Shown here: positions 4,685 through 26,389 of the stretch, in pieces
Layout of the letters: the number at the start of each line of letters is the position of its first letter
Position numbering within the stretch: the stretch's first letter is position 1
From: a virus
IMG/VR virus record: IMGVR_UViG_3300045988_154120
Location: 1-46,108 of that record
Length of the DNA stretch: 46,108 bases
Reading direction: 5' to 3' (one strand)
Made by a program: the position numbers and the translations under genes
Notes under the pieces: generated by a model
The model's database searches: none
Seen by the model: only the letters and a program-made list of their open reading frames with translations
Told to the model about the DNA's origin: nothing

Positions 4685-4957
4685 TCAATAGAGTTGATAC
4701 TCATATGCCTTTATCTCCCTTTTTAAATCGTCAATGGCTTTCTTAACATCCTTTAAATCCATATCAAAGTTACTAACTAAATCTGCCATACGATTGTTAG
4801 AATAGCTCTGTAAAGCCGATTCTAGCGTTGTATGGTATGAGATAGGTTTTTGTACGCCTATCTCATTTCCTTCTTTATCCTTACCCTTTACGAACGTTAC
4901 AAGGGCGAATGAACCACTGCTAGAAGTGATTGCATAATTGTTTTGTAATCTAATCAT
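4685..4957 (-). CDS. Hypothetical protein (90 aa)
   Basis: Tracked ORF in the early operon. Confidence 0.55.
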   Translation of the reverse strand: MIRLQNNYAITSSSGSFALVTFVKGKDKEGNEIGVQKPISYHTTLESALQSYSNNRMADLVSNFDMDLKDVKKAIDDLKREIKAYEYQLY

Positions 4958-5211
4958 TTGTTGCCCTCTTTCATTATTTTTAAATCGAGCAAAAATCTTT
5001 TCATCAAAAAGATTTTGTTTGCCATTCTGTCTACAATTCTATGTAAACTCCATATTCTGCTATTATCAACTTCTGATAAGCAGTCAGATTCTTTTAAAAC
5101 ATTCTCCAACTCATCTTTATACTTTTTTAGACATTCTGTGTCATCTTCAATTTCTATAGTGTACATTTCAATTAAAGAATCAAGTCCTTCTTCAATCCTT
5201 GTTTTAATCAT
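4954..5211 (-). CDS. Hypothetical protein (85 aa)
   Basis: Tracked ORF with 4-nt overlaps to both neighbours. Confidence 0.55.
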   Translation of the reverse strand: MIKTRIEEGLDSLIEMYTIEIEDDTECLKKYKDELENVLKESDCLSEVDNSRIWSLHRIVDRMANKIFLMKRFLLDLKIMKEGNK

Positions 5212-5441
5212 TGTTCTTGCTCCTTTAGCTTTTTAACAAATTCATCAGTTTCTTTTTTGATTTGCACCATTCTTTTAAGCTTTCTCAAACTTGCGTTTTG
5301 CTTTTTTCTCAGTTTCTTCATAATTAATTCTTGTTCTTTTTTTGAATCATCCTCAAGCATTTGATTGAATTGTTCTTTAACCTTTTTTTTATACTCTTCT
5401 TCTGTGAATCTGTTTTTTTCTTCTAATTCTTTATCTGTCAT
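5208..5441 (-). CDS. Lys/Glu-rich hypothetical protein (77 aa)
   Basis: Tracked ORF with overlapping neighbours. Confidence 0.5.
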   Translation of the reverse strand: MTDKELEEKNRFTEEEYKKKVKEQFNQMLEDDSKKEQELIMKKLRKKQNASLRKLKRMVQIKKETDEFVKKLKEQEQ

Positions 5442-5646
5442 TTTTATTCTTTATCCTTTCATCAACTTTTTCTAAGCAATATTCCGTACAATTATCGTAT
5501 TTTAAACATTTGCCAAGCTTATACGCTACACATTTATTTTGTAAGCATTTATGTAGTACTGGTCTTGTAAATGTTCCTGTGCCAATCGTAATTGGTACAA
5601 CTTCTTCTTTTGAAGTTAAATCAGGACAAAATTTAATCATCTTCAT
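5431..5646 (-). CDS. Cys-rich hypothetical protein (71 aa)
   Basis: Tracked ORF containing 7 Cys. Confidence 0.5.
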   Translation of the reverse strand: MKMIKFCPDLTSKEEVVPITIGTGTFTRPVLHKCLQNKCVAYKLGKCLKYDNCTEYCLEKVDERIKNKNDR

Positions 5647-6007
5647 CTTTTTCTTCTTTCTGTTTCACTAATTCCTCATATTTATCGGCTATAAATCCAT
5701 CCATATCTTGTTTTGTGAACCCTAGATTTAATAAATCATCTTTATAATTCACTCCATAATTCCATGAATCTATATCTAAATAGTACTCTAGTGAATAGTT
5801 ATCAACATTTAACAATCTACAATTGCGTTCTAGAATGTATTGCTTATACTGCTCTATTTTTTCGGCTAAATCATTTATTTCTTTTTTTGCTTGTGCAACA
5901 TCTTCGCTATGTGATTCTTGTTCCTCTTTTAGCCTTCTTTTTAAATACTCGTTATTACTTTTTAACAAATCATATGTTTCTAGTGACATTTGAACAAACG
6001 CTTCCAT
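5633..6007 (-). CDS. Coiled-coil hypothetical protein (124 aa)
   Basis: Tracked ORF. Confidence 0.55.
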   Translation of the reverse strand: MEAFVQMSLETYDLLKSNNEYLKRRLKEEQESHSEDVAQAKKEINDLAEKIEQYKQYILERNCRLLNVDNYSLEYYLDIDSWNYGVNYKDDLLNLGFTKQDMDGFIADKYEELVKQKEEKDEDD

Positions 6008-6178
6008 TTAAAAATCATCCTCCTCATTTGAATCATCATTAATAATTGCGTTGTATAAGTATTCAATACGTTCTCTGTATTCTTCTTTTGTGATTTCTGA
6101 TAAAGGCTTTTTGAATGATGTAGGCAATAATTTAAATCCAAATTCTTTTTCAAATTCATCTAAATCTTTTTCCGTCAT
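6008..6178 (-). CDS. Acidic 56-aa hypothetical protein (missed by the ORF track)
   Basis: Manual translation gives MTEKDLDEFEKEFGFKLLPTSFKKPLSEITKEEYRERIEYLYNAIINDDSNEEDDF. It has an ATGA overlap with the stop of 6175..6429, and its TAA directly abuts the next ATG. Confidence 0.5.
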   Translation of the reverse strand: MTEKDLDEFEKEFGFKLLPTSFKKPLSEITKEEYRERIEYLYNAIINDDSNEEDDF

Positions 6179-6429
6179 ACTTCAACATCCTCATCTTTTG
6201 GCATTTCATAAACAAGTACTTCATCAATGTCAGCATATTTGATTCTAAAATAAATATCATTCAATACCTCCATTGCTTTTTCTTTGGTTGAATATTCGCC
6301 TAATTCTTGTTCGTATCTATCATAGTGCCCATGAATTGAGTAATAAACGCAACCATCAATATCGCATTTACAAATTCTAAGCGAATTAACGTTTGCTAAT
6401 ATATAATTGTTCTGTGTTCTAATCCACAT
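6175..6429 (-). CDS. Hypothetical protein (84 aa)
   Basis: Tracked ORF. Confidence 0.55.
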   Translation of the reverse strand: MWIRTQNNYILANVNSLRICKCDIDGCVYYSIHGHYDRYEQELGEYSTKEKAMEVLNDIYFRIKYADIDEVLVYEMPKDEDVEV

Positions 6430-6430
6430 C

Positions 6431-6928
6431 TTAGTACCCCTTTGCTAACCTTTCTTTGTTAATTTCATTCTTGCGAATATATTCTTTATAAATTTTTTCT
6501 AATGAAAATCCCATGTGCAATCCAAGTGCGATTACGTAAGCTAATACATCATCATCTTCTACACTACCAAGTACTCTGCTATACACATAAGCTTGTCCAA
6601 GCTCTGAATCAAACTTTAGTGTCCTATAGTTATATTCAATGTCCTCATTTTGATAACGACAATCACCATAAGTAATTTCAAACATTAACGCAAAATGAAG
6701 TACATCTACATATTCTTCAAATACTTTAGCTACATCTACAGGCTCTTGTGTAAATTTCCACCAACACCAATCAGATTTTTGAGCATGCATCAATTCGCCT
6801 AATTCATCAAATAATGCCCTTTCTAATTGTTGTCTAGAAACACTTGTAACATTGTGTTTCTTAAACACTTCTGCATCATGTTTATTTTGCCTGCATAGCA
6901 TATCTTTAATCATTTCTGTACTTGTCAT
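6431..6928 (-). CDS. Dimeric dUTPase / MazG-like all-alpha NTP pyrophosphatase
   Basis: The pattern ...LGELMHAQKSDWCWWKF......EEYVDVLHFALMF resembles phage dUTPase_2. AGGAGG precedes the ATG at 6928. Confidence 0.55.
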   Translation of the reverse strand: MTSTEMIKDMLCRQNKHDAEVFKKHNVTSVSRQQLERALFDELGELMHAQKSDWCWWKFTQEPVDVAKVFEEYVDVLHFALMFEITYGDCRYQNEDIEYNYRTLKFDSELGQAYVYSRVLGSVEDDDVLAYVIALGLHMGFSLEKIYKEYIRKNEINKERLAKGY

Positions 6929-10824: not shown

Positions 10825-11724
10825 CTACTTCCTTTTCGCATAACTCAATGATTCAAGATTCTGCTTTTTCATTTTCCTTGTTGTACGAACATAGATTCTT
10901 GTAGTTTCTAAACTAGAATGGCCCAAAATGTCAGCTAGTTCTGCAATCGCATTTTCACCATTCTGCATCAAATACTGAATTGCAAACAAATGTCTAAATG
11001 CATGAGGATGTACTTTACCAAGCTTAATCCCTCTGCATTTACCAGCAATCATCTTTAAGTCTCTAGACAACACACGAGCGTTTACAGGACTTTTCTTATC
11101 AGAAGATGTAAATATACACCCTTCTTCAATTTTGTTGTCCTTGCAGTATTTAAGGAGCTCCCTTCGCAAGTCTGAACGTAGAATGATTCCTCTACCTTTT
11201 CCTTTGTTCATAACATAGATATTGTCATTCTTTACTGCTTCTACAGTAAAGAACTGTAATTCGCTCAGCCTAATTCCCGTATACCCAAACACCTTCATAA
11301 TCTCGTATAAGTCCATACGATTGATTTCACGGGCTTTTTTCAGTAGTCTTTGAAATTCATTAGGCTCTAGAATATCATCCAAAGAATCATCTTTCTGGAC
11401 TCTTACGTTCTTCAATAAATTCTTTGAATAATATTTCTTTAGCTTAAGAAAATTAAAATCATCATCTGAATCAATGATTTCCGCATATTTAATAAATTTA
11501 TTAATAATCACGATATAATTATTCACTGTACTGATTTTATAATCATGCAGCAGTTTATCTTTAACAGTAACTATATCGCTCTTTTTTATTTCACCATCAG
11601 GCAATGAGTTAACAAACAAAGTAGCAACATGCTTGTATTTACGAATGGTATTCTTACTTTTTTCATCCGCTGTTTCTTCTTCAATAAACCCGTCAATTTT
11701 TGTTTGTAACTCATCCTTAGTCAT
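10825..11724 (-). CDS. Second tyrosine recombinase (XerC/D-like, 299 aa)
   Basis: The catalytic set is visible: TGIRLSEL (Arg), HPHAFRHLFA (His-x-x-Arg) and GHSSLETTRIYV (His...Tyr). An N-terminal SAM-like domain is present. Confidence 0.85.
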   Translation of the reverse strand: MTKDELQTKIDGFIEEETADEKSKNTIRKYKHVATLFVNSLPDGEIKKSDIVTVKDKLLHDYKISTVNNYIVIINKFIKYAEIIDSDDDFNFLKLKKYYSKNLLKNVRVQKDDSLDDILEPNEFQRLLKKAREINRMDLYEIMKVFGYTGIRLSELQFFTVEAVKNDNIYVMNKGKGRGIILRSDLRRELLKYCKDNKIEEGCIFTSSDKKSPVNARVLSRDLKMIAGKCRGIKLGKVHPHAFRHLFAIQYLMQNGENAIAELADILGHSSLETTRIYVRTTRKMKKQNLESLSYAKRK

Positions 11725-16636: not shown

Positions 16637-17734
16637 TCACAACAAGTTATTCATCATATCAACAATGCTCTTATCTTTTGTATCAAACCAGTGTGCATAT
16701 GTATTGTGCAATGTTTCAACTGTATCTCCTAAGCGTTTGGCTATGTCAAAATCTGAGAATCCAGCTCCTGCCATGTTATTAATTAGAAATGATGCATGTG
16801 AATGTCTAAAATCATGAATTCTTATTTTAGGCAATTCCTCATCTTTTTCTTTCGCCTTATTGTATGCATCATCAAATCTTCTTTGTACTGTCTGAGGTGA
16901 TATTGGTTTATAATATCCAAATACAAATTTATCTTTTGTGAAATCATCCCATTTAGAACATTCTAAAAACCATTCTCGAAGCATTTTAGACAAAGTATTA
17001 GGCATTGTGATAGTTCTATAGCTATTGTTTGTTTTTGGCGGTGTAAGCCATTTATCAGGGTCTTTCTCTTTGTATCTATATGTTTTGTTGATGTCTATAG
17101 TTTGTTTTCTAAAATCAATGTCCTTCCATTGTAGGGCCATTGCTTCACCTTTTCGTAATCCCATATAGAATAAAACAGAATAAAAGCATTTCATCATTTG
17201 TTCATCTACTTCTTCAATGAATAAATCAAAATCATATTGCTGCCATATTGTCATTTCTTCTTTTCTTTCATTCAATCTGAGATCACGTTTCACATATGTC
17301 ATTGGATTGGTTGGAATGTATTCAGAAGTAACGCCAAATTTATATAGCTTATTTAAAAAGAAATATATTCTTGATACATATGCCTTTGAATATTTATCAT
17401 CAAATTTGTTGATCAAGTTTTGCATTTGCCTTTTATCTAGAAAATCAATATCTTTCATTTCCTTAGAAAGAACATTGTACAAATATTCATCTGATTTTAG
17501 TGTTGATTCTTTTACATACTTTTTATTATATTCTTTAAAAGCTTTATATAATCTATCAAAATTCATGTCTGATGGAAGCATAAAGAAATCTTTTCTGAAT
17601 TCAACCTCAGCTTTTTGTGCTTCCCATTTAGAATCAAAACCACGCTTACGATATCTCTTTATACATTTGCCATCTTTATATATTTTCCCGGCAAACATAT
17701 ATTTTCCTGTCTTCTTATCTAATTCCACTGCCAT
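16637..17734 (-). CDS. int: Phage integrase (tyrosine recombinase, 365 aa)
   Basis: GLRKGEA (Arg), IHDFRHSHAS (His-x-x-Arg) and LHNTYAHW (Tyr) are present. It is adjacent to attP-like repeats. Confidence 0.9.
   Translation of the reverse strand: MAVELDKKTGKYMFAGKIYKDGKCIKRYRKRGFDSKWEAQKAEVEFRKDFFMLPSDMNFDRLYKAFKEYNKKYVKESTLKSDEYLYNVLSKEMKDIDFLDKRQMQNLINKFDDKYSKAYVSRIYFFLNKLYKFGVTSEYIPTNPMTYVKRDLRLNERKEEMTIWQQYDFDLFIEEVDEQMMKCFYSVLFYMGLRKGEAMALQWKDIDFRKQTIDINKTYRYKEKDPDKWLTPPKTNNSYRTITMPNTLSKMLREWFLECSKWDDFTKDKFVFGYYKPISPQTVQRRFDDAYNKAKEKDEELPKIRIHDFRHSHASFLINNMAGAGFSDFDIAKRLGDTVETLHNTYAHWFDTKDKSIVDMMNNLL
16641..16702. repeat. Copy of the 62-bp direct repeat that forms the int 3' end (partner at 15822..15883)
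   Basis: Same alignment as for 15822..15883. Confidence 0.85.
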
Positions 17735-18050: not shown

Positions 18051-19136
18051 TTATTCAATTTCTGTTAACGGTGTTGGGTCAACCCAAACACCACCAATCT
18101 TGACAATATTCTTTTGAACATTCACTGCATCGACTCTGATTCTAGATACGTAGACTACTGCATTTGTGGTATGCAGTACATTGTCATTATATCCATCTGA
18201 ATTTGGTACTTTATCTACCATACGAATAGGAAACCAACCGCCTAATTTAGACAAGTAGCAGCATAAATCATCACCAATTTTCTTCAAGCCTTGGTTGCCA
18301 ATTTTCATATGTACAGATGTAACATAGCTTCCTTCATGCAAGATTTGGTCGATAGCTTCTGCGCTAGACTGTGTAGCGCCTACTGGTGTATGGGGATCTG
18401 TATCAATACCCGCATCATCCGTCCATCCAATCGCTACCCCATTACGATCAACACGATATGGATATTTAGAGCCTTTAATAACTCTACCAATTGATCCGTT
18501 CCAATCTCCTTTTAAGATTTTAGAAGTTCCGTAGCAATTTACACTTAATGTATTTGTGCAGATAGGCGTACCGACTGAATACTTTTCACCACTTGGAGCA
18601 CTTGGTTGTGTTGGTTCTACAGTCTGGCCATCCAATTTAGAATTTACTTCTTGTGCTAATTGCTTCATCTTAGAATGTAAATAAGGCCCTGGACATGATG
18701 TTGCTGCGAACATTCTATGCTCAGTCAAGCTACCAGTTGAATCGCCAGTGTAGTTTAATCTGAATCCATATCGTTTACATACATCCACACATAGATTTAC
18801 TAATGCATTCCAAGCTTTTGATGAGATAGTCCATGTATCTGTATTATCATTAGCAATTTCAATTGTAATTGATTGGCAATCGTTGTAGTAGTTTGATGAT
18901 GTCCACGCTCTGTTTTCTTCGTCAACATTTGAAACAATCGTACCATCTGAGCCAATACAATAATTCGCACTAGCCATTCTTCCGCTTACTTGGAATGACT
19001 GAGCGCATCGCTCTGCTGTCCATTTGCAAGCCATGTGATGAGGTGTAATTTTACAAACTTTGTAGCCACCACGTCCACGCATATAGTTATCTGCACTAGC
19101 AGGAATATATTTATTCGCTAATTTAGAATATGACAT
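18051..19136 (-). CDS. Endolysin: N-acetylmuramoyl-L-alanine amidase (Amidase_2/PGRP-type) with C-terminal cell-wall-binding repeats
   Basis: ITPHHMA...ASANYCIG.DG.I...VDEENRAWTS...ITIEI...TEHRMFAATSCPG is present, and it lies downstream of the holin. Confidence 0.9.
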   Translation of the reverse strand: MSYSKLANKYIPASADNYMRGRGGYKVCKITPHHMACKWTAERCAQSFQVSGRMASANYCIGSDGTIVSNVDEENRAWTSSNYYNDCQSITIEIANDNTDTWTISSKAWNALVNLCVDVCKRYGFRLNYTGDSTGSLTEHRMFAATSCPGPYLHSKMKQLAQEVNSKLDGQTVEPTQPSAPSGEKYSVGTPICTNTLSVNCYGTSKILKGDWNGSIGRVIKGSKYPYRVDRNGVAIGWTDDAGIDTDPHTPVGATQSSAEAIDQILHEGSYVTSVHMKIGNQGLKKIGDDLCCYLSKLGGWFPIRMVDKVPNSDGYNDNVLHTTNAVVYVSRIRVDAVNVQKNIVKIGGVWVDPTPLTEIE

Positions 19137-19230: not shown

Positions 19231-19461
19231 TTATTCATCCTCCGGTACACTAATTTCAGGTAATCCACCAATACTAGTCAATAGCGAAACAACGCCTGAC
19301 AAAACCGCTGACGAAATTACAACTCGCCAATCAACGGCTTCTAACAATGCAGATGCTCCAATAACACCAACAGCAGTTTGAGCAATTGTCTTTAACGCTC
19401 TGATACTTGCATAATAGCCATATTGAATCCACCATTCTTTACTATATTTTTTCATTTTCAA
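19231..19461 (-). CDS. Holin (holin_4/LL-H-like)
   Basis: ALKTIAQTAVGVIGASALLEAVDWRVVISSAVLSGVVSLLTSIGGLPE is present, along with TM helices. It lies directly upstream of the endolysin. Confidence 0.8.
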   Translation of the reverse strand: MKMKKYSKEWWIQYGYYASIRALKTIAQTAVGVIGASALLEAVDWRVVISSAVLSGVVSLLTSIGGLPEISVPEDE

Positions 19462-19494: not shown

Positions 19495-19513
19495 TTTGTA
19501 CACTGTACAAAAT
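19495..19513. promoter_or_regulatory. Copy 1 of the 19-nt element TTTGTACACTGTACAAAAT, whose core is a perfect 17-bp palindrome
   Basis: Identical to 41682..41700. It lies between a terminator-like hairpin and the holin SD. Confidence 0.6.
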
Positions 19514-19534
19514 AAAAGACCGTATTTAACGGCC

Positions 19535-20017
19535 TTATTGATACATATTAAACATGTCTCGTATATGTGTCTTAATCATTGTTTTTTCTTCATCTGAATC
19601 AACGCATCCATGAATCATAGTTACGATTTGTTGCATACATTTCATAGTCTTATCTAATTCACGATGAGACTTTTCTAAATCCATATCACCTTTTGTACGC
19701 GTATATTCTTCTTTGAACGCTTTATATTTTTTCAAATGTTCTGCAAGCTTATAAACAATATCTTCTGTTTCTGGATCATGAATATTATATCCATCATTAT
19801 CTTCTTTTAATCTTGCAACAGTTGAAACTCCATCTTTTCCTATCTCAATTTGATATTTATTTCTCATTGCTTCTATAGTTTCAATGTCTTTGATATTATC
19901 TAAAGCTTGAGATAATGCATGGAAATAAGATTCTGCATATCCATATTTCTCTAACATGTTTACTGACTCATGCATTATCTTCTCATTAACTTCCATTGCT
20001 TTATGCATATTTTTCAC
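19535..20017 (-). CDS. Hypothetical helical protein (160 aa)
   Basis: Tracked ORF whose start abuts the stop of 20018..20437. Confidence 0.55.
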   Translation of the reverse strand: MKNMHKAMEVNEKIMHESVNMLEKYGYAESYFHALSQALDNIKDIETIEAMRNKYQIEIGKDGVSTVARLKEDNDGYNIHDPETEDIVYKLAEHLKKYKAFKEEYTRTKGDMDLEKSHRELDKTMKCMQQIVTMIHGCVDSDEEKTMIKTHIRDMFNMYQ

Positions 20018-20437
20018 CTACGCAATCTTTTTAATGATGATATTTGCGTTTTGAACAGATAGATCTAAACCACTGTTATTTGCTAATGCAATTGTATAAG
20101 ATGCGCCACATGGAACTTGAATTAGAGTGTCTCCACTCACATTTCCATACGCACTTGCAGTTGCAACAGTATAAATAGATTGTGTTCCACCAATTGCTTC
20201 TCCGTTTTGTTCAAGTACTAAAGAAGCTTGCCCTGCCGCTGCACTCGTAATATCCGCAGTATAAGTTACTTCATAGATACCTGGCTTTGTTAGTGTAAAC
20301 AATCCACTTCCTAAATCGTGTGCCAACCATCCTTTACATGGACACTGGCAGGATTTACTTCTTACACGATCTGTAAGAAACAATACATTATTTGAATTAT
20401 CGACTGTCTGAACAGCCGTAGCAATACTATTAATCAT
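20018..20437 (-). CDS. Protein resembling the BclA C-terminal domain / ExsF (C1q/TNF-type jelly roll), 139 aa
   Basis: LTKPGIYEVTYTADITS...LVLEQNG...IQVPCGASYTIALANNS...IIIKKIA parallels the pattern seen in exosporium BclA-CTD/ExsFA (recalled from memory), and a CQCPC motif is present. Confidence 0.45.
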   Translation of the reverse strand: MINSIATAVQTVDNSNNVLFLTDRVRSKSCQCPCKGWLAHDLGSGLFTLTKPGIYEVTYTADITSAAAGQASLVLEQNGEAIGGTQSIYTVATASAYGNVSGDTLIQVPCGASYTIALANNSGLDLSVQNANIIIKKIA

Positions 20438-20524
20438 TTCTTTTATCCTCCTATTAAAATAGGGATAGCCTTTCGACTATCCCGTTAAATCCAAAGGCAA
20501 TTGCCTAATCACATATGTGCTAGA

Positions 20525-21148
20525 TTATAAGTTGTTGTAGCCATTACATCCACATCCGTTGTTGTAAGCGTAATATGGTGAACATGTAATGTATGCTGGT
20601 TTTGGTGTTGGTTGCAAAGTATTAATGATATTTGCAGATTGTGCCTGTTGACTTAATTGGAAATTAGCCGTCAATAAATCACGGTCACGATCAGCTAAAC
20701 GATCACGTAATTCTTGCATAGTGTTTGCATTGATCAACGCACGTGTTGCTTCACCTTCTGAATGAATTGCTGTTGTAATGTCACAAGTATTTTTGAAACT
20801 TTGAGCATTTACATTGTCAATTGCTCTTTGAGTGTTGCAGCAGCATTCTTGTTGCTGAGCTTGCAAGTTTTGAAGTCCTAACTGATTAGTATAGCGACTT
20901 TCTAATACATCACGTTGAGTTTGACAACCTGTTTGAGATACATTTGTGTTTGTGTTAAAAATGTCTCGTTTAATGAATTCTTCATTCAATAAAGAATCAT
21001 TTGTTAGGTTTCCGTTGCCATATCCTCCATATCCAAATAATACGAAGATTAGCAAGATCCAAATCCACCAACCTCCTCCGTCTCCAAAGCCGTCATTTCT
21101 TTCGGCTAAGTTGTAAGTTGGTTGAATTCCCATTCCGTTTTCCATCAT
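20525..21148 (-). CDS. Membrane protein with a Gly/Trp/Tyr-flanked TM helix (YjcZ tiny-TM-like), Q/N-rich coiled region and Cys clusters (207 aa)
   Basis: Contains GFGDGGGWWIWILLIFVLFGYGGYGNGN, an ECCCN motif and the C-terminal CSPYYAYNNGCGCNGYNNL. Confidence 0.5.
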   Translation of the reverse strand: MMENGMGIQPTYNLAERNDGFGDGGGWWIWILLIFVLFGYGGYGNGNLTNDSLLNEEFIKRDIFNTNTNVSQTGCQTQRDVLESRYTNQLGLQNLQAQQQECCCNTQRAIDNVNAQSFKNTCDITTAIHSEGEATRALINANTMQELRDRLADRDRDLLTANFQLSQQAQSANIINTLQPTPKPAYITCSPYYAYNNGCGCNGYNNL

Positions 21149-21189
21149 ATATGTTCTCCTTTCTTTCTATAATAACGGTTTAGCCGTTG

Positions 21190-21432
21190 TTACCTGATTC
21201 CAAATTGTTTTGCCATTTGTTGCAGTTGTTGCTTTTGTTGTGGATTTAAATTACCCATCATCTGATTTAAAATCATTTGTGGGTTTTGGCCACTGTTCAT
21301 AAGCATTTGAAATTGTTGAAATGCTTGTGGATTTTTCTGTGATAGCATATTCATTAACATTTGTTGGGGATTTCCCATATTCATCATATTCATTGGATTC
21401 ATATTACCCATAATACTTTTTAAAGGATTCAT
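21190..21432 (-). CDS. Low-complexity protein rich in Met, Asn, Gln and Pro (80 aa)
   Basis: MNPLKSIMGNMNPMNMMNMGNPQQMLMNMLSQKNPQAFQQFQMLMNSGQNPQMILNQMMGNLNPQQKQQLQQMAKQFGIR, with a 4-nt overlap to the upstream gene. Confidence 0.5.
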   Translation of the reverse strand: MNPLKSIMGNMNPMNMMNMGNPQQMLMNMLSQKNPQAFQQFQMLMNSGQNPQMILNQMMGNLNPQQKQQLQQMAKQFGIR

Positions 21433-21878
21433 TTTGTTTGTGCTCCTTTCTTTGGTTGTTCATTAGTTTGTTTTGGTGGTTTGCTTAATGCACATATCAA
21501 ATCATCTAATTTCTTTTCGATTCCATTTACACGATTTTCAATACTGTTAGAATTATCTTCCGTAATTTCTTCAAATTTGAACTTTTTAAATGTTCCATCT
21601 AAAGATTTCATATAAAAAATAGATTTATTGTTATCAAATAAAATCGTTGGTAAATTTGCATTCGCAAAGTTTCTAGCTTCCTGCTCATCGTTCACCCATT
21701 TTCCATTAAAATCAAAATTACCTTGTTGTTGTGGTGTAATCTGATTATTAATATTGATAGGTGGAATATTTGCATACTGTTGTACTTGCTGAATTTGTTG
21801 ATCTATCATTTGTCTTTGCTGCATCAAACTGTCAATTCGTGCTTGCGCTGGATTATAATTGTTATACATTTCAACCAC
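21429..21878 (-). CDS. Q-rich hypothetical protein (149 aa)
   Basis: Tracked ORF with AAAGAGGTGG upstream. Confidence 0.55.
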   Translation of the reverse strand: MVEMYNNYNPAQARIDSLMQQRQMIDQQIQQVQQYANIPPININNQITPQQQGNFDFNGKWVNDEQEARNFANANLPTILFDNNKSIFYMKSLDGTFKKFKFEEITEDNSNSIENRVNGIEKKLDDLICALSKPPKQTNEQPKKGAQTK

Positions 21879-21948
21879 CTCTTTACGATTTAATTATATG
21901 TTTACGTAATAAATAATTTAATACTCGAATAATACTCATAAAATACCC

Positions 21949-21981
21949 AAAATAAAATGAGCAATCACTATAGATTGCTCA
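21949..21981 (-). terminator. Minus-strand terminator whose loop contains the stop codon of the sigma-like gene
   Basis: TGAGCAATC-N6-GATTGCTCA followed on the minus strand by TTTTATTTT. Confidence 0.55.
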
Positions 21982-22201
21982 CATATTTATCGAACATTTT
22001 TCTAGCTTTGCATACTCTGTTCCTTATGGTTTGTACTTCCATATGTAATGCATCTGCAATTTCAGTACATGACATATCATATACGTATCTCATAATCAAA
22101 ACCTGTTCATATTTCTTTCTTAATCCAACAGACTTGATAAGTATTAATGCATCATTAGGACGTATCTCTTTTAATCTGTTAGCTTTGTTAATATAAACCA
22201 C
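21968..22201 (-). CDS. Small sigma-70 region-4-like HTH protein (77 aa)
   Basis: KKYEQVLIMRYVYDMSCTEIADALHMEVQTIRNRVCKARKMF fits the sigma region 4.2 / YlxM-like pattern. Confidence 0.55.
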   Translation of the reverse strand: MVYINKANRLKEIRPNDALILIKSVGLRKKYEQVLIMRYVYDMSCTEIADALHMEVQTIRNRVCKARKMFDKYVSNL

Positions 22202-22209
22202 CGCCTTTA

Positions 22210-22443
22210 TTAAATTCGTTGGTTTGAATTAGCTTCGCAAGAACAATTATTCACATGATCATCTTTCCAATAACCACAACAAACAATTGTAGAATAAAGA
22301 ACAATAATCACTAAAACCAATACTGTAATAATCGTTCTACTTGTTTTATAGTTTCGATCAATTAATTTTGAGCAAAAACCATAAATATTATCTACTTTTT
22401 CTTCTACATTCTGAAGTTTCTTGTTTGCATCTTTAATATCCAT
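22210..22443 (-). CDS. XhlA-like protein: N-terminal coiled coil with a C-terminal TM helix
   Basis: KKLQNVEEKVDNI... is followed by IITVLVLVIIVLYSTIVCCGYW. Its position in the cassette also fits. Confidence 0.45.
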   Translation of the reverse strand: MDIKDANKKLQNVEEKVDNIYGFCSKLIDRNYKTSRTIITVLVLVIIVLYSTIVCCGYWKDDHVNNCSCEANSNQRI

Positions 22444-22726
22444 TTTTATTACGATCCTCCAACGCTTCTACACGTTTAAACAAAGTAGTTATTTGTTCTT
22501 TTATTTGAGAAAGCTCAACTTCCATTGAATTACTTCCTTTTTTAATTTCTGAAATTGAATCTTTAATATCACTTAAATCCGATTTAATATGTTCTAATTC
22601 ATTCTTCAAAAATGCCATATTGGATATTTGTTCTCCATCCATCTTGCGTGTTCCACGATTATACGTAATAAATGCAATTACAAGCATGCATGCAGAAATA
22701 ATAACACTAAGATATTCACCGCTCAT
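22433..22726 (-). CDS. Membrane-anchored coiled-coil protein (97 aa)
   Basis: An N-terminal TM helix (VIISACMLVIAFITY) is followed by heptad-like LEHIKSDLSDIKDSISEIKK. Confidence 0.5.
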   Translation of the reverse strand: MSGEYLSVIISACMLVIAFITYNRGTRKMDGEQISNMAFLKNELEHIKSDLSDIKDSISEIKKGSNSMEVELSQIKEQITTLFKRVEALEDRNKNGY

Positions 22727-23217: not shown

Positions 23218-24126
23218 CTAGTAAATTTCTGCGTCTGCAATAATGTTTTTCATTCTTAATGTATAGTAGTCTACATTATTACCAATAACGACAAGACCAA
23301 TTCCGTATTTATTTGAATCAACACTTGTAACTTTTTCAGAAATCACTTCATCATTAGCCTTGTGTATATTACTATACGTGATTGTTGGATTCGTGCGCAT
23401 TTCTACTGGGAATAAACCACCTGCGCTTTGATAATATTGTCCATTACTACTAAATGCCGTTCTCGTACTTGCATACGGAATAAAATATATTTCCGGTATT
23501 ATTTGTAAAAATCGCGCACATTTCACTAATTCCTCTGCCGGATTTGGAGCAACAAAAGGGGTAGCGATTGATCCTTGTTCTAGTTTCACCCATTCAATCT
23601 TACAAGAGCTTCCTTTTGTAACTTGTATAATTACTTTTTTAGCTTGGCTTGCTAAGCCTATAGAATAAATCCCACTCGTTGTAATATTTAAATTGTTTCC
23701 ATTAGATGTACTGTCCATAACTGAAACTACAATACTTCCAGTTACTGAATCCACCTTCAATGTAAATAATGTTTCTGAATCAATTGGTCTTTCCAATTCC
23801 TGTGCAAAAAATCCACCGTCATTATTTTGACTGTCTGCGGATAGTGATATACCATCTGTAGAGGCATTTACATTTAAAGATAAATTTCTCCATCTATCTA
23901 CTGTATATCTTACTACCCCATCACTTGTATACTCTGCTTTTCCTCTCTGATTTATCTTAAAATTGGGATTAATCAACAAATTCGGGTTACTGAACTTATC
24001 CGACATATACGCCGTCACATCACCCATGCTTGATTTCTTTAGCCCATTTCCATCATGAACTGCAAAGATATCGCTATCTTTTAAAACACTTGCTTTCGTT
24101 AAATCTGTAAATTGTTTTCCTTGCAT
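23218..24126 (-). CDS. Putative tail fibre or receptor-binding protein (302 aa)
   Basis: The N-terminus FTDLTKASVLKDSDIFAVHDGNGLKKSSMGDV is typical of fibre anchor domains. It is the last large structural gene. Confidence 0.55.
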   Translation of the reverse strand: MQGKQFTDLTKASVLKDSDIFAVHDGNGLKKSSMGDVTAYMSDKFSNPNLLINPNFKINQRGKAEYTSDGVVRYTVDRWRNLSLNVNASTDGISLSADSQNNDGGFFAQELERPIDSETLFTLKVDSVTGSIVVSVMDSTSNGNNLNITTSGIYSIGLASQAKKVIIQVTKGSSCKIEWVKLEQGSIATPFVAPNPAEELVKCARFLQIIPEIYFIPYASTRTAFSSNGQYYQSAGGLFPVEMRTNPTITYSNIHKANDEVISEKVTSVDSNKYGIGLVVIGNNVDYYTLRMKNIIADAEIY

Positions 24127-24135
24127 ATTGTCCTC

Positions 24136-25053
24136 CTATTCTACTTTATATTTCCAGTCTGCAAGAAGTGTGTTTTGATTTTCATCAACTAGAGTTGTTT
24201 CATTATCAAAAAGCAATAAAGTATAAAAATGATTTTCTAAAATCATATCCATAATATCTGCAATTTGTTGCCTAACAGCATTTCCAGCTGTCGGATAAAT
24301 TGTTCCATCATACCCAATACGAATGTCTGTTATTTCAGTATTGGCATCAGGCAAGTTTCCGGAGTTAAATAATTGATCTACTCTAGACTTAAGAACACTT
24401 AAATCATTAACTCTAATTCCATATTTTGAAATTAAATCATTTAATTCTTGCACTCCTGAATCCTTGATACCATTTATTTTCGTGATACCTGTGTCTCTAG
24501 CATCTTTAATTTGATTTACTGCATTTGTGCATTCTTCTGAAACCAGTAAAAGCATAGTTGCAATCTCATCTCGTTCATTTTGATCTAATGAAGATGATTT
24601 TGCATAAATACTTTCAGGAGTAACTACTCTAGCAAGTGTTGTTGCCCAACGTTTTTGAATCACTCCGTCATCATCTACAATCACAGCACTAACCACGAAA
24701 TAAAGATCTCCTTTATTCTTTAGCGCATTATTTGGAACAACCCAAGAGAATTCACATGTGTCATAGTAAGTGACCTTATCCACAGCCAAAGATGAACCAA
24801 CAATCCCTTTTGAATCTCTATAGTTTATACGAATGAAAGCATCTTCCATCTTAAATACTTCCGATACTACATTCATAACTTTAAATTTTACATATTTAGA
24901 ATCTTTATCATATTGAACACCAAATACATTTTCAGGATCAGGTATATATATTTCACGTGTCTTTGCATCTACAACTAACGTTTCATTTCCTACACCTGCA
25001 TATGCATCTAAATCAAAACTAAGTGTTGCATTTAACTTTGCCATTTTATACAC
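24136..25053 (-). CDS. Baseplate or tail-fibre-associated structural protein (305 aa)
   Basis: Assigned from its position in the tail-tip module. Confidence 0.5.
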   Translation of the reverse strand: MYKMAKLNATLSFDLDAYAGVGNETLVVDAKTREIYIPDPENVFGVQYDKDSKYVKFKVMNVVSEVFKMEDAFIRINYRDSKGIVGSSLAVDKVTYYDTCEFSWVVPNNALKNKGDLYFVVSAVIVDDDGVIQKRWATTLARVVTPESIYAKSSSLDQNERDEIATMLLLVSEECTNAVNQIKDARDTGITKINGIKDSGVQELNDLISKYGIRVNDLSVLKSRVDQLFNSGNLPDANTEITDIRIGYDGTIYPTAGNAVRQQIADIMDMILENHFYTLLLFDNETTLVDENQNTLLADWKYKVE

Positions 25054-25339
25054 TCCTAACTACTAAAATCCCTGAAAGTGGTGTATCATGAATTCCATTT
25101 GTTTCTACAGTGATCATCCATTTGTACGTACCTTCTGTAAGAGCATCTGATGGACATTTGATTTTCAAATCTTCTTTAATATCCACACACTCAATAACTC
25201 TTGAGTTGTTCATAATCACAAATTGAACCTTGTCATTATTTCCTGGTATAAACGTATTTCCACTTTTAAAATTAAAAGAAACATCAGTAATAATCGTATC
25301 TCCTTTATTTATTGTGATTTGTTTGTTTTTTATTTCCAT
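25046..25339 (-). CDS. Small beta-rich structural protein (97 aa)
   Basis: Assigned from position; overlaps its neighbour. Confidence 0.45.
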   Translation of the reverse strand: MEIKNKQITINKGDTIITDVSFNFKSGNTFIPGNNDKVQFVIMNNSRVIECVDIKEDLKIKCPSDALTEGTYKWMITVETNGIHDTPLSGILVVRSV

Positions 25340-25351
25340 ATATGCTCCTTT

Positions 25352-26389
25352 CTATTTATATAGAATTGCTTTTTTCCATTCCAATCCATCAAAAACAAAT
25401 AATCTGCATAACTGATAATTACTTCTATTCTGTGTAACTGCTAATGAATAGCCACGCTTCCATCTTATTCCATCAAACTGCCATACTTCCATATGAGTAA
25501 ACGTTGTATTGAATTTAACGTTCACCCATGAAGATGTTCTGTCTAATGAATCTGTAACAAGTACTTGAATCGTTCTTTCTGTATTTTTTGGAACAGAATA
25601 TAGCTTAACTTCTCTAGAATCCACTGTGTTTTGACTTGAGCCATCTTTGTATGTTACTGATTTAACATGTCCATCATCCGATGTATGTACAGTGAATTTC
25701 ACATCATCTGTATTTCCACTACCTTTGATAATTTCAAAATCTACATAAGTTACATATACAGAAGCGTAGTTTTCCAATGTAGTGGTCTTTAATACCGTTT
25801 GTGACAAGCTATTTCCGCTACAGTCTGCCATATAAGATTCTACATGAAATTCATATTCTGTTTTCTGAGTAAGATCAGTAAAAGAATAATTTCCATTTAA
25901 ATTATTACTTACAAATTGTTCATCTTTATTAGAATATAAACGTAATGTATATAAGTTATATGGATTCGTTTTCAACTTTCCAAAAATTGAAATGTCATTG
26001 TTTCCAACACCTGATATCCATGCATCATATGATGGCAAATCAATTAATGGTGTAGTCAATCTTGCTATTCCTGATAAATTAGGCCATCCTTGACAACTCG
26101 CATTCCATTCAAAATACCGTTGTCTATTGCAGTACATAGGTTCATTAATTTCTCCTAGATAATACCATCCTGAATCCTGAATATAATTTAAATCCCACCT
26201 TGAAATAGTTTTAGAAAGTCCTCCAAGAGTAACAACATTGTTTGCTTGGATTTTGAAGTTTCCGGTGTACTTAAACCTTACATCCGCTTTAAATTTTAAA
26301 TTAGGATACGAACCTTCGTATCTCTCGTTGTAAGATTCAAACGTAAGTATTAAATACTGATTATATGGTAATGTTGCTAAAACAGTCAT
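25352..26389 (-). CDS. Baseplate or tail-tip structural protein (345 aa)
   Basis: Assigned from position. Confidence 0.5.
   Translation of the reverse strand: MTVLATLPYNQYLILTFESYNERYEGSYPNLKFKADVRFKYTGNFKIQANNVVTLGGLSKTISRWDLNYIQDSGWYYLGEINEPMYCNRQRYFEWNASCQGWPNLSGIARLTTPLIDLPSYDAWISGVGNNDISIFGKLKTNPYNLYTLRLYSNKDEQFVSNNLNGNYSFTDLTQKTEYEFHVESYMADCSGNSLSQTVLKTTTLENYASVYVTYVDFEIIKGSGNTDDVKFTVHTSDDGHVKSVTYKDGSSQNTVDSREVKLYSVPKNTERTIQVLVTDSLDRTSSWVNVKFNTTFTHMEVWQFDGIRWKRGYSLAVTQNRSNYQLCRLFVFDGLEWKKAILYK

What the first reader, a model, noticed from the sequence alone, without database searches (positions are those of the whole stretch)
19535..22201. Six-gene cargo block wedged inside the XkdX/XhlA-holin-endolysin cassette
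In PBSX-type modules the order xkdV-xkdW-xkdX-xepA-xhlA-xhlB(holin)-xlyA is contiguous. Here the XkdW/XkdX/XhlA-like genes (23209 down to 22210) are separated from the holin (19461) by 2.7 kb holding six genes.

The six genes are:
- A 77-aa sigma region-4-like HTH that has its own terminator.
- A Q-rich 149-aa protein.
- An 80-aa protein rich in Met, Asn, Gln and Pro.
- A 207-aa membrane protein with a YjcZ-like Gly/Trp-flanked TM helix and Cys clusters (CCC and a C-terminal CGCNGYNNL).
- A 139-aa protein resembling the BclA C-terminal domain (C1q/TNF-type jelly roll).
- A 160-aa helical protein.

None of these looks like a virion or lysis protein. The composition recalls spore coat and exosporium building blocks. 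The layout of regulator, cargo and holin recalls holin-coupled release loci such as TcdR/TcdE or UviA/UviB. This is my best candidate for an undescribed phage-borne system.
Basis: partly seen in the sequence, partly recalled or inferred. Interest (0 to 1): 0.8.

Follow-up and report, generated by a model that had tools for sequence, protein, structure and literature searches.

The report
Widespread unknown phage late-gene cassette
The six genes are real: one small DNA-binding regulator plus a five-gene cassette of unknown function that is not spore-related and recurs, usually beside the lysis genes, in gut phages of Firmicutes, Bacteroides and a methanogen-assigned virus.

Summary
All six ORFs exist as described on the minus strand (A-F, 19535-22201) and evolve under purifying selection. 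A is a 77-aa sigma-region-4 HTH with its own terminator. E passes Pfam's BclA_C threshold. B, C, D and F match only PHROGs of unknown function.

The block is not an oddity of this phage. The host is Holdemanella biformis, which has lost sporulation. B-C-D-E-F is a portable cassette:
- The D family has 1118 clusters at 50% identity.
- Its position varies: before the holin here, between holin and endolysin in a sister lineage, inside the head module, or after the lysis genes elsewhere.
- D relatives also occur in Crassvirales, a cultured Bacteroides phage and viruses assigned to Methanomassiliicoccales.
- None was found in 72,556 plasmids.

The spore-coat reading is therefore rejected.

Between A's terminator and B lie three 11-bp-spaced GAGTAT repeats and an invariant TATAAT without a -35 hexamer. 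The repeats change with the regulator across lineages, which suggests an A-dependent promoter.

D has a conserved hydrophobic N-terminal anchor, a helical rod with CCC motifs and a Gly/Tyr/Cys tail. E is a C1q/TNF-type head.

My best guess, at low confidence, is a late-made, membrane-anchored rod-and-head complex acting with lysis. A virion fibre or a lysis-released cargo remain open. The function is undescribed.

The parts
22433..22726 (-). u97: 97-aa protein with an N-terminal TM segment and a coiled coil ('XhlA-like'). It is the upstream flank. Analogous TM/coiled-coil genes precede the cassette in other lineages.
   Evidence: One search gives the ORF. One search gives hydropathy 1.96. One search gives only weak PHROG 'hemolysin' hits. 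One search shows analogous genes in L012, L013, L014 and L016.
22210..22443 (-). u77: 77-aa protein with a coiled coil and a C-terminal TM segment. Its stop lies 8 nt before the start of A.
   Evidence: KD19 2.97. It is conserved with the cassette in the lineage.
21968..22201 (-). A: 77-aa sigma-70 region-4-type HTH protein, the inferred activator of the cassette promoter.
   Evidence: Pfam Sigma70_r4_2 E=2e-10. PHROG sigma factor and Q-like hits. A small HTH, or an AgrB-like protein with a C-terminal HTH-like tail, fills the same slot in other lineages.
21957..21982 (-). T_A: intrinsic-terminator-like hairpin with a T-run, overlapping the stop codon of A.
   Evidence: A hairpin with a T-run sits in the same slot in L080, L070, L088, L012, L016, L014 and L021.
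21921..21948 (-). Three direct repeats at 11-nt spacing (GGGTAT, GAGTAT, GAGTAT). The last repeat covers about -40 to -35 relative to the -10 box. Inferred operator for A.
   Evidence: This is the only exact site in 46 kb. It is present exactly once in 62 of 65 lineage loci, while the spacer next to it varies. The repeat word changes with the regulator: TGAnAn in L080 and GATACT in L070/L088.
21893..21898 (-). TATAAT -10 box of the inferred promoter P_B. There is no -35 hexamer. It ends 7 nt before the GTAAAGAGG ribosome-binding region, and its first base is about 29 nt upstream of the B start codon.
   Evidence: Read from the sequence. TATAAT is retained in every intergenic variant listed for both lineages, at the same distance from the RBS.
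21429..21869 (-). B: 146-aa protein (phrog_21718). It has a Q/N-rich N-terminal helix, an invariant PPININN linker, a small alpha/beta domain, a C-terminal helix and a basic tail.
   Evidence: family alignment. (AF2 pLDDT about 90 for residues 56-98). (no solved-structure analogue; many uncharacterised gut-phage relatives)..
21190..21432 (-). C: 80-aa Met/Gln/Asn/Pro-rich protein. Its start overlaps the stop of B. It lies immediately upstream of D in nearly every Firmicutes-phage lineage where D's upstream flank was examined.
   Evidence: A Met-rich stretch resembling C lies in front of the hydrophobic segment in crAss-like D proteins (by eye).
20525..21148 (-). D: 207-aa core protein (phrog_16490/9288). 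It has a Gly/Trp-flanked hydrophobic anchor (about residues 24-42), a helical rod with TQ[RK][DE][VI]LExRY/CCC repeats, an ultra-conserved ...QQAQ..I...L.P.P.PAY.TCSPY segment and a Gly/Tyr/Cys tail.
   Evidence: 1118 clusters; anchor in 105 of 111 representatives, CCC in 94 of 111. One search gives secondary structure only (pLDDT 46). One search gives dN/dS 0.07.
20462..20483 (-). T_D: GNRA-loop hairpin with a T-run, lying directly against the RBS of E. It is preceded by a second small conserved hairpin (AGGCAATTGCCT).
   Evidence: same slot in L080 and L010, with a compensatory stem change in L010. (spacer fold z=-3.2). No Rfam family.
20018..20437 (-). E: 139-aa stand-alone BclA_C (C1q/TNF-type) domain protein (phrog_20016).
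   Evidence: Pfam 43.8 bits against cut-off 38. BclA is the top PDB match. Homologues are almost all stand-alone proteins of about 138-144 aa. dN/dS 0.07-0.12.
19535..20008 (-). F: 157-aa acidic protein. It is a core cassette member, recognisable by a C-terminal SD(F)..E...I...I..MF motif.
   Evidence: a relative hits phrog_28802, unknown function. No Pfam or PDB match.
19516..19536 (-). T_F: hairpin with a T-run after F. It is followed by a conserved 15-bp palindrome, TTGTACAGTGTACAA (19496-19510), ahead of the holin RBS.
   Evidence: palindrome shared with L010. A hairpin sits in the same slot in L080.
19231..19461 (-). Holin (context).
   Evidence: Phage_r1t_holin E=5e-12. phrog_443.
18051..19136 (-). 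Endolysin (context). It is the last late gene before attP and the integrase.
   Evidence: Amidase_2 E=2e-20. In prophage copies it abuts the host genes DUF1848, radC and mreC.

Best explanation
**Shown**
- The block is a regulator (A) plus one copy of a conserved, portable five-gene cassette (B-C-D-E-F) of tailed phages.
- A ends the tail-gene run, lies 8 nt after the preceding gene's stop codon, and is followed by a terminator-like hairpin.
- Next comes a promoter-like site with an invariant -10 box, no -35 hexamer, and three 11-bp-spaced repeats reaching the -35 position.
- B, C and D follow, tightly or overlappingly spaced. A hairpin then abuts the RBS of E. E and F follow, then a third hairpin, then holin and endolysin.

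**Inferred regulation**
- A binds the repeats and switches on P_B late in infection.
- E-F, and probably holin-endolysin, are reached by read-through of the two internal hairpins. These would act as attenuators or as stabilising RNA 3' ends.

**Inferred products**
- B, C, E and F have no signal peptide, so the proteins are made in the cytoplasm. Their ribosome-binding sites look strong by eye.
- D carries a family-wide hydrophobic Gly/Trp-flanked anchor, a long helical rod with CCC motifs and a Gly/Tyr/Cys tail. E is a C1q/TNF-type domain, trimeric in its characterised relatives.
- I propose that D and E form a two-piece 'anchor-rod-head' complex.
- C, which is Met-rich, would shield D's anchor. 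B and F would be assembly or adaptor factors.

**Function (my commitment, about 35-40% likely)**
The complex sits in the cytoplasmic membrane at the end of the lytic cycle and works with the lysis genes, as an egress or lysis-timing accessory. It does not build spores or alter the lysogen.
For: **Cassette and portability**
- The same gene order recurs in more than ten diverged lineages.
- The D family has 5112 word-indexed hits and 1118 clusters at 50% identity. It was absent from 72,556 plasmids.
- Selection is purifying.

**Regulation**
- Hairpins sit in the same three slots in the window, L080 and L010, with a compensatory change in T_D.
- The repeat array is unique in the window. In the lineage the repeats and TATAAT are constant while the spacer between them varies.
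- The repeat word co-varies with the regulator type.
- T_D's T-run touches the RBS of E, so E needs read-through.

**Late expression**
- In L080 the cassette lies between a Phage_holin_4_1 holin and the endolysin.
- In L013 and L015 it lies between portal/minor head protein and scaffold/major capsid protein. In both cases downstream essential late genes presumably depend on transcription that enters or starts within it.

**Membrane**
- An anchor with favourable Wimley-White energy is found in 105 of 111 representatives (median KD19 1.76).

**Link to lysis**
- Holin, endolysin or XhlA-like genes are adjacent or within a few kb in most lineages: the window, L080, L070, L018, L012/L016, Ceridwen, Dulem 33, C. 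perfringens phages, and the crAss-like phages cr53_1 and cr116_1.
- The host range spans Firmicutes, Bacteroidota and, by record labels, Methanomassiliicoccales. From general knowledge, the cytoplasmic membrane is the envelope layer these hosts share.

**No export**
- B, C, E and F lack hydrophobic N-termini.
Against: - There is no experimental or homology link to any lysis function.
- The regions next to lysis genes, and between minor head protein and scaffold, are general hot spots for accessory genes. Adjacency may therefore mean nothing.
- In Dulem virus 39 and Bacteroides phage C3_41T2LP the cassette lies among early or DNA-metabolism genes.
- D's anchor has no positive-inside bias on either side, so its topology, and even its membrane insertion, are unproven.
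- AF2 gave no confident model of D (pLDDT 46).
- The D-E interaction is inferred only from gene adjacency. In C. perfringens and crAss-like phages the E slot holds a protein with no detectable homology to E.
- Depositors of crAss-like and Bacteroides phage genomes labelled D 'spike protein/glycoprotein' or 'outer capsid protein/viral fiber', which points to the virion rival.
- Binding of A to the repeats is untested.
Confidence: 0.38

Rival explanations
1. Accessory virion fibre. D trimers form a coiled-coil shaft whose hydrophobic N-terminus plugs into the capsid or tail, as in reovirus sigma-1 or the adenovirus fibre. E, or its non-homologous substitutes, is an exchangeable receptor- or glycan-binding head. 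B, C and F are adaptor or chaperone proteins.
For: - Depositor labels for D homologues read 'outer capsid protein/viral fiber' and 'spike protein/glycoprotein'.
- E has a C1q/TNF-type head fold, like the tip of the BclA filament.
- The E slot is swapped for an unrelated beta-rich protein while D stays conserved, as happens with exchangeable fibre heads.
- The cassette lies just after tail-fibre genes here, after tail-protein and reverse-transcriptase genes in vir215 and cr53_1, and inside the head module in L013-L015.
- Products are made in the cytoplasm without signal peptides.
Against: - The cassette moves between siphoviruses, crAss-like phages and archaeal viruses whose virions share no obvious docking site.
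- It carries its own regulator and terminators, which is unusual for structural genes.
- A Gly/Trp-flanked hydrophobic stretch and Cys/Gly/Tyr tails are not typical of tail fibres.
- A deletion variant persists as a prophage.
Confidence: 0.25
2. Lysis-released cargo. The cassette makes an abundant cytoplasmic complex that is set free by holin and endolysin and acts outside the producer cell. It could be an adhesin or lectin, a membrane-active toxin against competitors, or a cross-linkable matrix around virions. The logic would resemble Stx under Q control or TcdR/TcdE.
For: - Regulator, own promoter, cargo and lysis genes lie in that order.
- No export signals are present.
- D has a membrane-partitioning segment next to a Met-rich partner.
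- E has a lectin-capable fold class.
- D's termini are rich in Cys, Tyr and Gly.
- Nearly every sourced hit comes from gut, faecal or rumen samples, one from wastewater.
Against: - No toxin, enzyme or immunity domain was detected.
- The apparent restriction to gut samples may be sampling bias.
- The benefit to virulent crAss-like phages is unclear.
Confidence: 0.15
3. Lysogenic-conversion moron. The cassette would be expressed from the prophage and place a membrane protein complex on the lysogen, for superinfection exclusion or an altered cell surface.
For: - It has moron-like anatomy: its own promoter and terminators, and a variable position.
- In Dulem viruses 33 and 39 it lies close to the integrase gene.
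Against: - Its activator A is embedded at the end of the late operon.
- The cassette occurs in crAss-like phages, described as incapable of lysogeny (abstract of PMC8375218). It also occurs in C. perfringens phages related to a group that was isolated by screening for virulent phages, in whose paper neither 'lysogen' nor 'integrase' occurs.
- E, B, C and F have no secretion signals.
- No PADLOC hit.
Confidence: 0.07
4. Spore-coat or exosporium building blocks supplied by the phage.
For: - E is a BclA_C domain.
- The compositions (Q/N-rich, Met-rich, Cys/Gly/Tyr-rich) recall coat proteins. F has a weak sub-threshold YppG hit (E=0.0036).
Against: - The host, Holdemanella biformis, is by elimination one of four Erysipelotrichaceae classed as Former-Spore-Formers, with a low sporulation-gene score and ethanol sensitivity.
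- D and E relatives occur in phages of Butyrivibrio and Bacteroides, in Crassvirales and in viruses assigned to Methanomassiliicoccales. From general knowledge, none of these hosts forms endospores.
- E has no collagen-like region.
- D has no YjcZ family hit.
- The limited-pattern genome scan returned only 10 loci. One lies at the edge of a prophage, those inspected further carry phage cassette genes, and several bin labels look implausible.
Confidence: 0.01

Closest known systems
BclA exosporium filament of Bacillus anthracis/cereus (Pfam BclA_C, C1q/TNF-like trimer)
   Same: E passes the BclA_C gathering threshold and aligns to the very C-terminus of BclA (...IIIKKIA against ...IIIEKVA). The idea of a head domain sitting on an elongated stalk is similar.
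   Different: E is a stand-alone domain of about 139 aa with no collagen-like repeats and no N-terminal exosporium-targeting region. The candidate stalk is a separate alpha-helical protein (D). The host does not sporulate, and the family is phage-borne.
Q-controlled Stx cargo in lambdoid phages; TcdR/TcdE and UviA/UviB loci
   Same: A dedicated regulator and promoter sit ahead of non-structural cargo that lacks an export route of its own and lies next to a holin. There are terminators to be read through.
   Different: A is 77 aa with region 4 only. It is neither a complete group-5 sigma factor nor a Q protein (Phage_antitermQ 21.7 bits, below the cut-off of 26). The cargo has no toxin domain. 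The cassette also occurs away from lysis genes.
Single-pass lysis-cassette membrane proteins: i-spanin Rz/LysB, class III holin T of T4, PBSX XhlA
   Same: D has an N-proximal hydrophobic anchor followed by a long helical, Cys-containing domain, and is encoded beside holin and endolysin.
   Different: No sequence or profile match to any of them. No lipoprotein partner is present. Most hosts are monoderm. D's anchor lacks flanking positive charges.
Trimeric viral attachment fibres (reovirus sigma-1, adenovirus fibre, PRD1 P5)
   Same: The design is the same: hydrophobic N-terminal anchor, coiled-coil or repeat shaft, and jelly-roll head. Depositors labelled D homologues accordingly.
   Different: Here the shaft and head are separate polypeptides. 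Trimer formation and virion attachment are untested. The resemblance rests on depositor labels and on architecture, not on a test made here.
Phage morons (autonomous promoter-gene-terminator units in late operons)
   Same: The position among related phages is variable, the cassette has its own promoter and terminators, and decay variants occur.
   Different: The cassette has five to eight genes and a dedicated activator. It is conserved across phages of different phyla and is also present in non-temperate phages.

Membership tests
BclA_C (PF18573) domain family | Profile match above Pfam's gathering score | tested here: met
   E scores 43.8 bits against a cut-off of 38, E=2.9e-11. Most homologues carry a precomputed PF18573 hit. 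BclA chains are the top four PDB hits, each weak on its own (E 0.14-0.31).
BclA-type exosporium glycoprotein | Collagen-like GXY repeat region and N-terminal exosporium-targeting domain, in a spore-forming host | tested here: not met
   E is 139 aa with no GXY repeats. The host H. biformis is, by elimination, among the Former-Spore-Formers.
C1q/TNF-like fold | Trimeric jelly-roll structure | not tested
TcdR/UviA/BotR group-5 sigma factors | Full sigma with regions 2 and 4 (about 180 aa) | tested here: not met
   A is 77 aa. Only region 4 matches (residues 27-68), and all NCBIfam sigma models score far below their cut-offs.
Lambda-type Q antiterminators (PF06530) | Profile match above the gathering score | tested here: not met
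   21.7 bits against a cut-off of 26, covering only the HTH part.
YjcZ family sporulation proteins | Match to the Pfam YjcZ or NCBIfam tiny-TM model | tested here: not met
   D has no such hit at E<=1 in Pfam or NCBIfam. The resemblance is compositional only.
PBSX-type XkdX/XhlA lysis-adjacent genes | Profile matches of the upstream genes | tested here: inconclusive
   The 40-aa gene scores 22.2 bits for Phage_XkdX, just below the 23.5 cut-off. u97 gives only weak PHROG 'hemolysin' hits (6e-5) among many coiled-coil hits. The 115-aa gene matches phrog_24451, unknown function.
Spanins (i-spanin/o-spanin) | Diderm host; an N-terminal TM coiled-coil protein paired with an outer-membrane lipoprotein | tested here: not met
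   No lipobox gene is present (read by eye). Hosts include monoderm Firmicutes. No D hit to spanin PHROGs.
Known anti-phage defence systems | PADLOC model match | tested here: not met
   No meaningful hit for A-F.
Conserved B-C-D-E-F cassette (defined here) | Co-linear phrog_21718 (B), Met/Gln-rich small protein (C), phrog_16490/9288 (D), phrog_20016 (E) or a substitute, and an F-type protein, preceded by an HTH regulator with a terminator | tested here: met
   Iterative HMM mapping across 24 representative loci. PHROG assignments. Terminators and promoter.

The most novel reading that the evidence does not exclude
B-F would be a previously unrecognised class of phage egress or membrane-remodelling machinery. 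It would be an anchor-rod-head complex made at the very end of infection under its own activator. It would be shared by tailed viruses of Firmicutes, Bacteroidota and methanogenic archaea, and so would form a further component class of lysis beside holins, endolysins and spanins. An even more speculative variant is that its Cys/Tyr/Gly-rich parts cross-link after release to coat or tether virions of gut anaerobes.
Probability: 0.15. Interest if true: 0.85.

Novelty: categorically new. Interest (0 to 1): 0.6.

Why it matters
The core protein D defines a family of more than a thousand 50%-identity clusters with no Pfam model and no described function. With its partners it forms a conserved, self-regulated cassette in very abundant human-gut prophages: the exact D protein is indexed in 1409 blocks of the assembly collection. 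Relatives occur in Crassvirales and in viruses assigned to archaea.

A module that crosses phylum boundaries, and by record labels domain boundaries, while keeping a stretch about 60% identical over 45 residues between C. perfringens and crAss-like phages probably serves a general step of the phage life cycle that is not yet understood.

Culturable systems exist for testing it:
- Holdemanella biformis, from which the D protein is recorded.
- C. perfringens phages of the CPD1/PMQ04 type.
- Butyrivibrio phage Ceridwen.
- Bacteroides phage C3_41T2LP.

I chose 'categorically new' by exclusion, because no known kind of system fits. It is not a demonstration of a new mechanism.

Tried and rejected
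- **Nucleotide search.** A search of 50,697 phage records found no close relative.
- **Family searches.** Pfam, NCBIfam, PHROGs and PADLOC on all six proteins gave only A (HTH), E (BclA_C) and PHROGs of unknown function.
- **PDB sequence and profile searches.** B, D and F gave nothing. A divergent E-family profile lost the BclA signal.
- **AF2 of B.** The small domain was modelled confidently but has no significant PDB analogue; the best match was E 0.2, and a collagen XVIII trimerisation domain reached TM about 0.5 without significance. BFVD returned only uncharacterised gut-phage relatives carrying automatic coiled-coil names.
- **AF2 of D.** It failed (pLDDT 46), so I ran no fold search on it.
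- **hhalign tests.** E against the substitute protein of C. perfringens and crAss-like phages showed no homology. B against the crAss 'n2' protein showed none.
- **Other sequence searches.** tblastn of B against phages found no match. D against plasmids found none. Rfam found nothing in the block.
- **Literature.** Searches on BclA/C1q in prophages, AgrB next to lysis genes, Holdemanella prophages, C. perfringens phage proteomes and the crAss 'spike' gene described none of these proteins. The virion-proteome paper for PhiCP39O/26F is not held.
- **Readings considered and dropped.** Spanin, T4-type holin, type IV pilin, an AgrD-like or RiPP precursor reading of D's Cys-rich tail (no modification enzymes in this lineage), and STI1/ubiquilin-type homology for C (no profile support).

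Full report
**1. Observation**

The window is a temperate siphovirus genome read on the minus strand. The gene order is HNH, large terminase, portal, capsid region, tape measure, Dit, tail-fibre genes, the block in question, holin, Amidase_2 endolysin, then integrase and early genes.

All six ORFs of the finding exist at the stated coordinates. I call them A-F:
- A: 21968-22201.
- B: 21429-21869, using the ATG start.
- C: 21190-21432.
- D: 20525-21148.
- E: 20018-20437.
- F: 19535-20008, using the ATG start.

- A matches Sigma70_r4_2 (E=2e-10). A hairpin with a T-run overlaps its stop codon.
- The skewed compositions of B and C are as stated.
- D has Cys clusters and a hydrophobic segment.
- E matches BclA_C above Pfam's threshold. 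BclA chains are its best, though individually weak, PDB matches.

These are real genes. dN/dS against two diverged lineages is 0.06-0.39, and D and E are the most constrained.

Some labels are not supported at family level. 'YjcZ-like' has no hit. 'XkdW' has no support, XkdX falls just below its cut-off, and XhlA rests on weak hits only.

**2. Host and abundance**

The exact D protein is indexed in 1409 blocks of the public assembly collection. Its prophage copies end at the endolysin, next to the host genes DUF1848, radC, mreC, polA and fpg.

NCBI records the same protein as WP_302129787.1 from Holdemanella biformis, an Erysipelotrichaceae species.

Browne et al. (PMC8340488) obtained H. biformis DSM 3989 from DSMZ for their comparison of four Spore-Forming and four Former-Spore-Forming Erysipelotrichaceae.
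- The four Spore-Formers are named, and H. biformis is not among them.
- It is therefore one of the Former-Spore-Formers. These have a low sporulation-gene score and did not survive ethanol.
- This alone makes a spore-coat role very unlikely.

**3. The block is a portable cassette**

The run u97-u77-A-B-C-D-E-F-holin is constant in all 65 lineage copies that I scanned. The tail-fibre genes upstream and the endolysin downstream are mosaic. One copy carries an internal deletion running from mid-D to the end of F.

Beyond this lineage, iterative HMM mapping shows the same co-linear genes in many diverged phages:
- **A 37-38 kb lineage (L080).** The order is Phage_holin_4_1 holin, HTH, B, C, D, E, F, endolysin. 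The cassette therefore lies inside the lysis pair.
- **L013, L014, L015 and L011.** The cassette lies inside the head module. In L013 and L015 it sits between portal/minor head protein and scaffold/major capsid protein.
- **L070.** It follows the holin and endolysin.
- **L018.** It precedes the XhlA-like, holin and M15 endolysin genes.
- **Butyrivibrio phage Ceridwen, Dulem viruses 33 and 39, and C. perfringens phages of the CPD1/PMQ04 type.** It lies downstream of the lysis genes or near the integrase.

Optional extra members are:
- a protein of about 70 aa, which I call G;
- F' (phrog_17879);
- a DUF7841 protein.

D is the universal core:
- It has 5112 word-indexed relatives.
- It forms 1118 clusters at 50% identity by exhaustive HMM search, and members are always stand-alone proteins of about 180-300 aa.
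- It has 282 relatives in IMG/VR and none in 72,556 plasmids.

A tblastn search with a C. perfringens phage D also hit genes in Crassvirales that depositors call 'spike protein/glycoprotein'. In these, a 45-residue C-terminal stretch is about 60% identical.

A crAss-like D in turn hit the cultured Bacteroides phage C3_41T2LP and two viruses assigned to Methanomassiliicoccales.

In cr53_1 and cr116_1 the D gene again lies next to holin, LysB-like or carboxypeptidase lysis genes. A DUF7841 protein is its neighbour in cr53_1, and in C3_41T2LP one lies a few genes downstream. In cr116_1 a small beta-rich protein like the one in the E slot of the C. perfringens phages follows D.

**4. Regulation**

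Three hairpins with T-runs lie after A, after D and after F. They occupy the same slots in L080 and L010. The hairpin after D keeps its GNRA loop and shows a compensatory stem change in L010.

A terminator after the regulator gene is seen in every lineage I examined.

Between T_A and B lie three repeats at 11-nt spacing (GGGTAT, GAGTAT, GAGTAT). The last one reaches the -35 position of an invariant TATAAT, and there is no -35 hexamer.
- The exact repeat pair occurs only here in the 46-kb window.
- The array is present once in 62 of 65 lineage loci, while the spacer next to it varies. This is a phylogenetic footprint.
- The repeat word changes with the regulator. It is GAGTAT/TAGTAT where A is 81% identical (L010), TGAnAn with the 25%-identical HTH of L080, and GATACT in L070 and L088.

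In L070 the regulator slot holds a multi-TM protein that matches AgrB (42.9 bits). It keeps a His...Cys pair at the spacing I recall for AgrB's catalytic residues, and it carries a C-terminal tail that looks like an HTH by eye. L088 has an AgrB-like gene of the same family further upstream of B.

I infer that A activates P_B. The T-run of the hairpin after D touches the RBS of E, so E-F must be reached by read-through. The D-E spacer folds better than shuffled controls (z=-3.2) and matches no Rfam family.

Because the cassette lies between essential late genes in L080 and in L013-L015, I infer that it is transcribed during lytic growth.

**5. The proteins**

- **B (phrog_21718).** It has a Q-rich helix, an invariant PPININN linker, a confidently modelled small alpha/beta domain and a C-terminal helix. 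No solved structure resembles it significantly. Foldseek finds many uncharacterised relatives in gut sipho-, podo- and myoviruses.
- **C.** It is Met/Gln/Pro-rich and lies immediately upstream of D in nearly every Firmicutes-phage lineage examined. In crAss-like D proteins a Met-rich stretch resembling C lies in front of the hydrophobic segment (by eye).
- **D, anchor.** A Gly/Trp-flanked hydrophobic segment is conserved in 105 of 111 full-length representatives. Median Wimley-White energy is -11 kcal/mol and median KD19 is 1.76. There is no positive-inside bias.
- **D, rod and tail.** The rod is helical, with about 29-residue TQ[RK][DE][VI]LExRY/CCC repeats that are duplicated in some homologues. 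It ends in a highly conserved Pro-rich ...PAY.TCSPY segment and a Gly/Tyr/Cys tail.
- **E.** It is a stand-alone BclA_C domain. In C. perfringens and crAss-like phages an unrelated beta-rich protein takes its place (hhalign probability 0.2).
- **F.** It is acidic and conserved through a C-terminal motif. It has no known relatives.
- **Export and defence.** B, C, E and F have no signal peptide. No defence-system model matches any of the proteins.

**6. Interpretation**

The well-supported layer is this: a self-regulated, late-expressed, phage-restricted five-gene cassette built around D, with a head-like partner.

The function is inferred. I favour a membrane-anchored rod-and-head complex acting together with lysis, at about 0.38, for three reasons:
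- D's anchor is a family-wide feature and is able to partition into a membrane.
- Lysis genes are adjacent or nearby in most lineages, including crAss-like phages, and the cassette lies within the holin-endolysin pair in L080.
- From general knowledge, the cytoplasmic membrane is the envelope layer shared by the hosts: Firmicutes, Bacteroidota and Methanomassiliicoccales.

The main rivals are an accessory virion fibre (0.25) and a lysis-released cargo (0.15). The fibre idea is helped by the depositors' fibre and spike labels and by the exchangeable head slot.

A lysogenic-conversion moron is less likely (0.07). The activator sits in the late operon, and the cassette occurs in phages that are not temperate.

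The spore-coat idea is rejected (0.01).

**7. Comparison with known systems**

The block is not a member of the TcdR/UviA sigma family, the Q antiterminators, YjcZ, the spanins or any PADLOC system. Each of these was tested and not met. E is a member of the BclA_C domain family but not a BclA-type exosporium protein.

In layout the block works like a Q/Stx-type or TcdR/TcdE-type 'regulator-cargo-lysis' unit. In protein design it resembles an anchor-rod-head fibre. No described system combines these parts, and my literature searches found no description of any of the families.

I therefore rate it as lying outside known kinds. That rating is by exclusion, because the function is unknown. Interest is moderate to high, because the cassette is so widespread and can be tested in cultured systems.

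Noticed in passing
L070:2744-3316; L012:4580-5137; L016:1927-2553: In some cassette lineages the regulator slot holds a multi-TM protein. Its N-terminal half matches AgrB (42.9, 24.8 and 18.1 bits). It has a His...Cys pair seven residues apart, the spacing I recall for AgrB's catalytic residues. Its C-terminal tail looks like an HTH by eye. A second multi-TM protein precedes it. A membrane peptidase joined to a DNA-binding domain, placed ahead of a phage cassette, is unusual.
   Followed up: partly
L112 (cr116_1) 4563-5459; L113 (cr53_1) 4293-5207; L114 (Bacteroides phage C3_41T2LP) 5989-6906; L115 (vir215) 5878-6759: D-family proteins occur in Crassvirales (labelled 'spike protein/glycoprotein' or 'outer capsid protein/viral fiber'), in a cultured Bacteroides phage and in viruses assigned to Methanomassiliicoccales. 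The host assignments are those written in the records.
   Followed up: partly
L105:6588-7025; proteins P0122 and P0310; L030 9130-9609; L081 7962-8618: Decay and mosaic variants of the cassette exist. They include a deletion from mid-D to the end of F, what appear from hit tables to be B-E and HTH-E fusion proteins, a stop codon splitting F, and a split D. In L092, B and C are replaced by tail-fibre-like genes.
   Followed up: partly
window 23218-26389 and the corresponding stretches of L003-L008 and L102-L111: In otherwise near-identical prophages the tail-fibre region just upstream of the cassette is highly mosaic, with weakly matched Beta_helix and DUF6273 variants and a GDSL-lipase variant. 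The endolysin also alternates, between Amidase_2+SH3_5 and Amidase_2 with another C-terminal domain.
   Followed up: no
window 19496-19510 (minus strand): A perfect 15-bp palindrome, TTGTACAGTGTACAA, lies between the hairpin after F and the holin RBS. It is conserved in L010 although the surrounding spacer differs. It may be an operator or promoter element for the lysis genes.
   Followed up: no
window 20484-20524 (minus strand), also in L080, L010 and L070: A second small conserved hairpin (AGGCAATTGCCT, followed by TTGGATTT) precedes the terminator-like hairpin in the D-E spacer. In L070 the stem sequence differs but still pairs. No Rfam match.
   Followed up: partly
window 10825-11724 (minus strand): A second integrase-family gene (phrog_1, E=1e-34) lies in the early region, in addition to the integrase at 16637-17734.
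   Followed up: no
L113 (cr53_1) 1335-2357; L115 (vir215) 4152-5186: A reverse-transcriptase gene sits just upstream of the D-containing region in both a crAss-like phage and the archaeal-assigned virus. In each case it follows a tail-protein gene, which in cr53_1 is annotated as similar to a major tropism determinant. The cr53_1 late genes, including D, contain in-frame stop codons (recoding).
   Followed up: no
alignment A1 columns 168-196 (P0104, P0105, P0112, P0117): D contains an internal unit of about 29 residues (CCCxTQ[RK][DE][VI]LExRY..QLGLQ) that is present in one extra copy in some homologues. The rod length therefore varies by whole repeats.
   Followed up: no
loci L011, L015, L016-L018: Cassette-bearing contigs are binned into MAGs labelled Bacteroidales, Odoribacter, Rickettsiales and Treponemataceae. 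These are probably phage contigs that were mis-binned, so MAG labels are unreliable for assigning hosts to this family.
   Followed up: no
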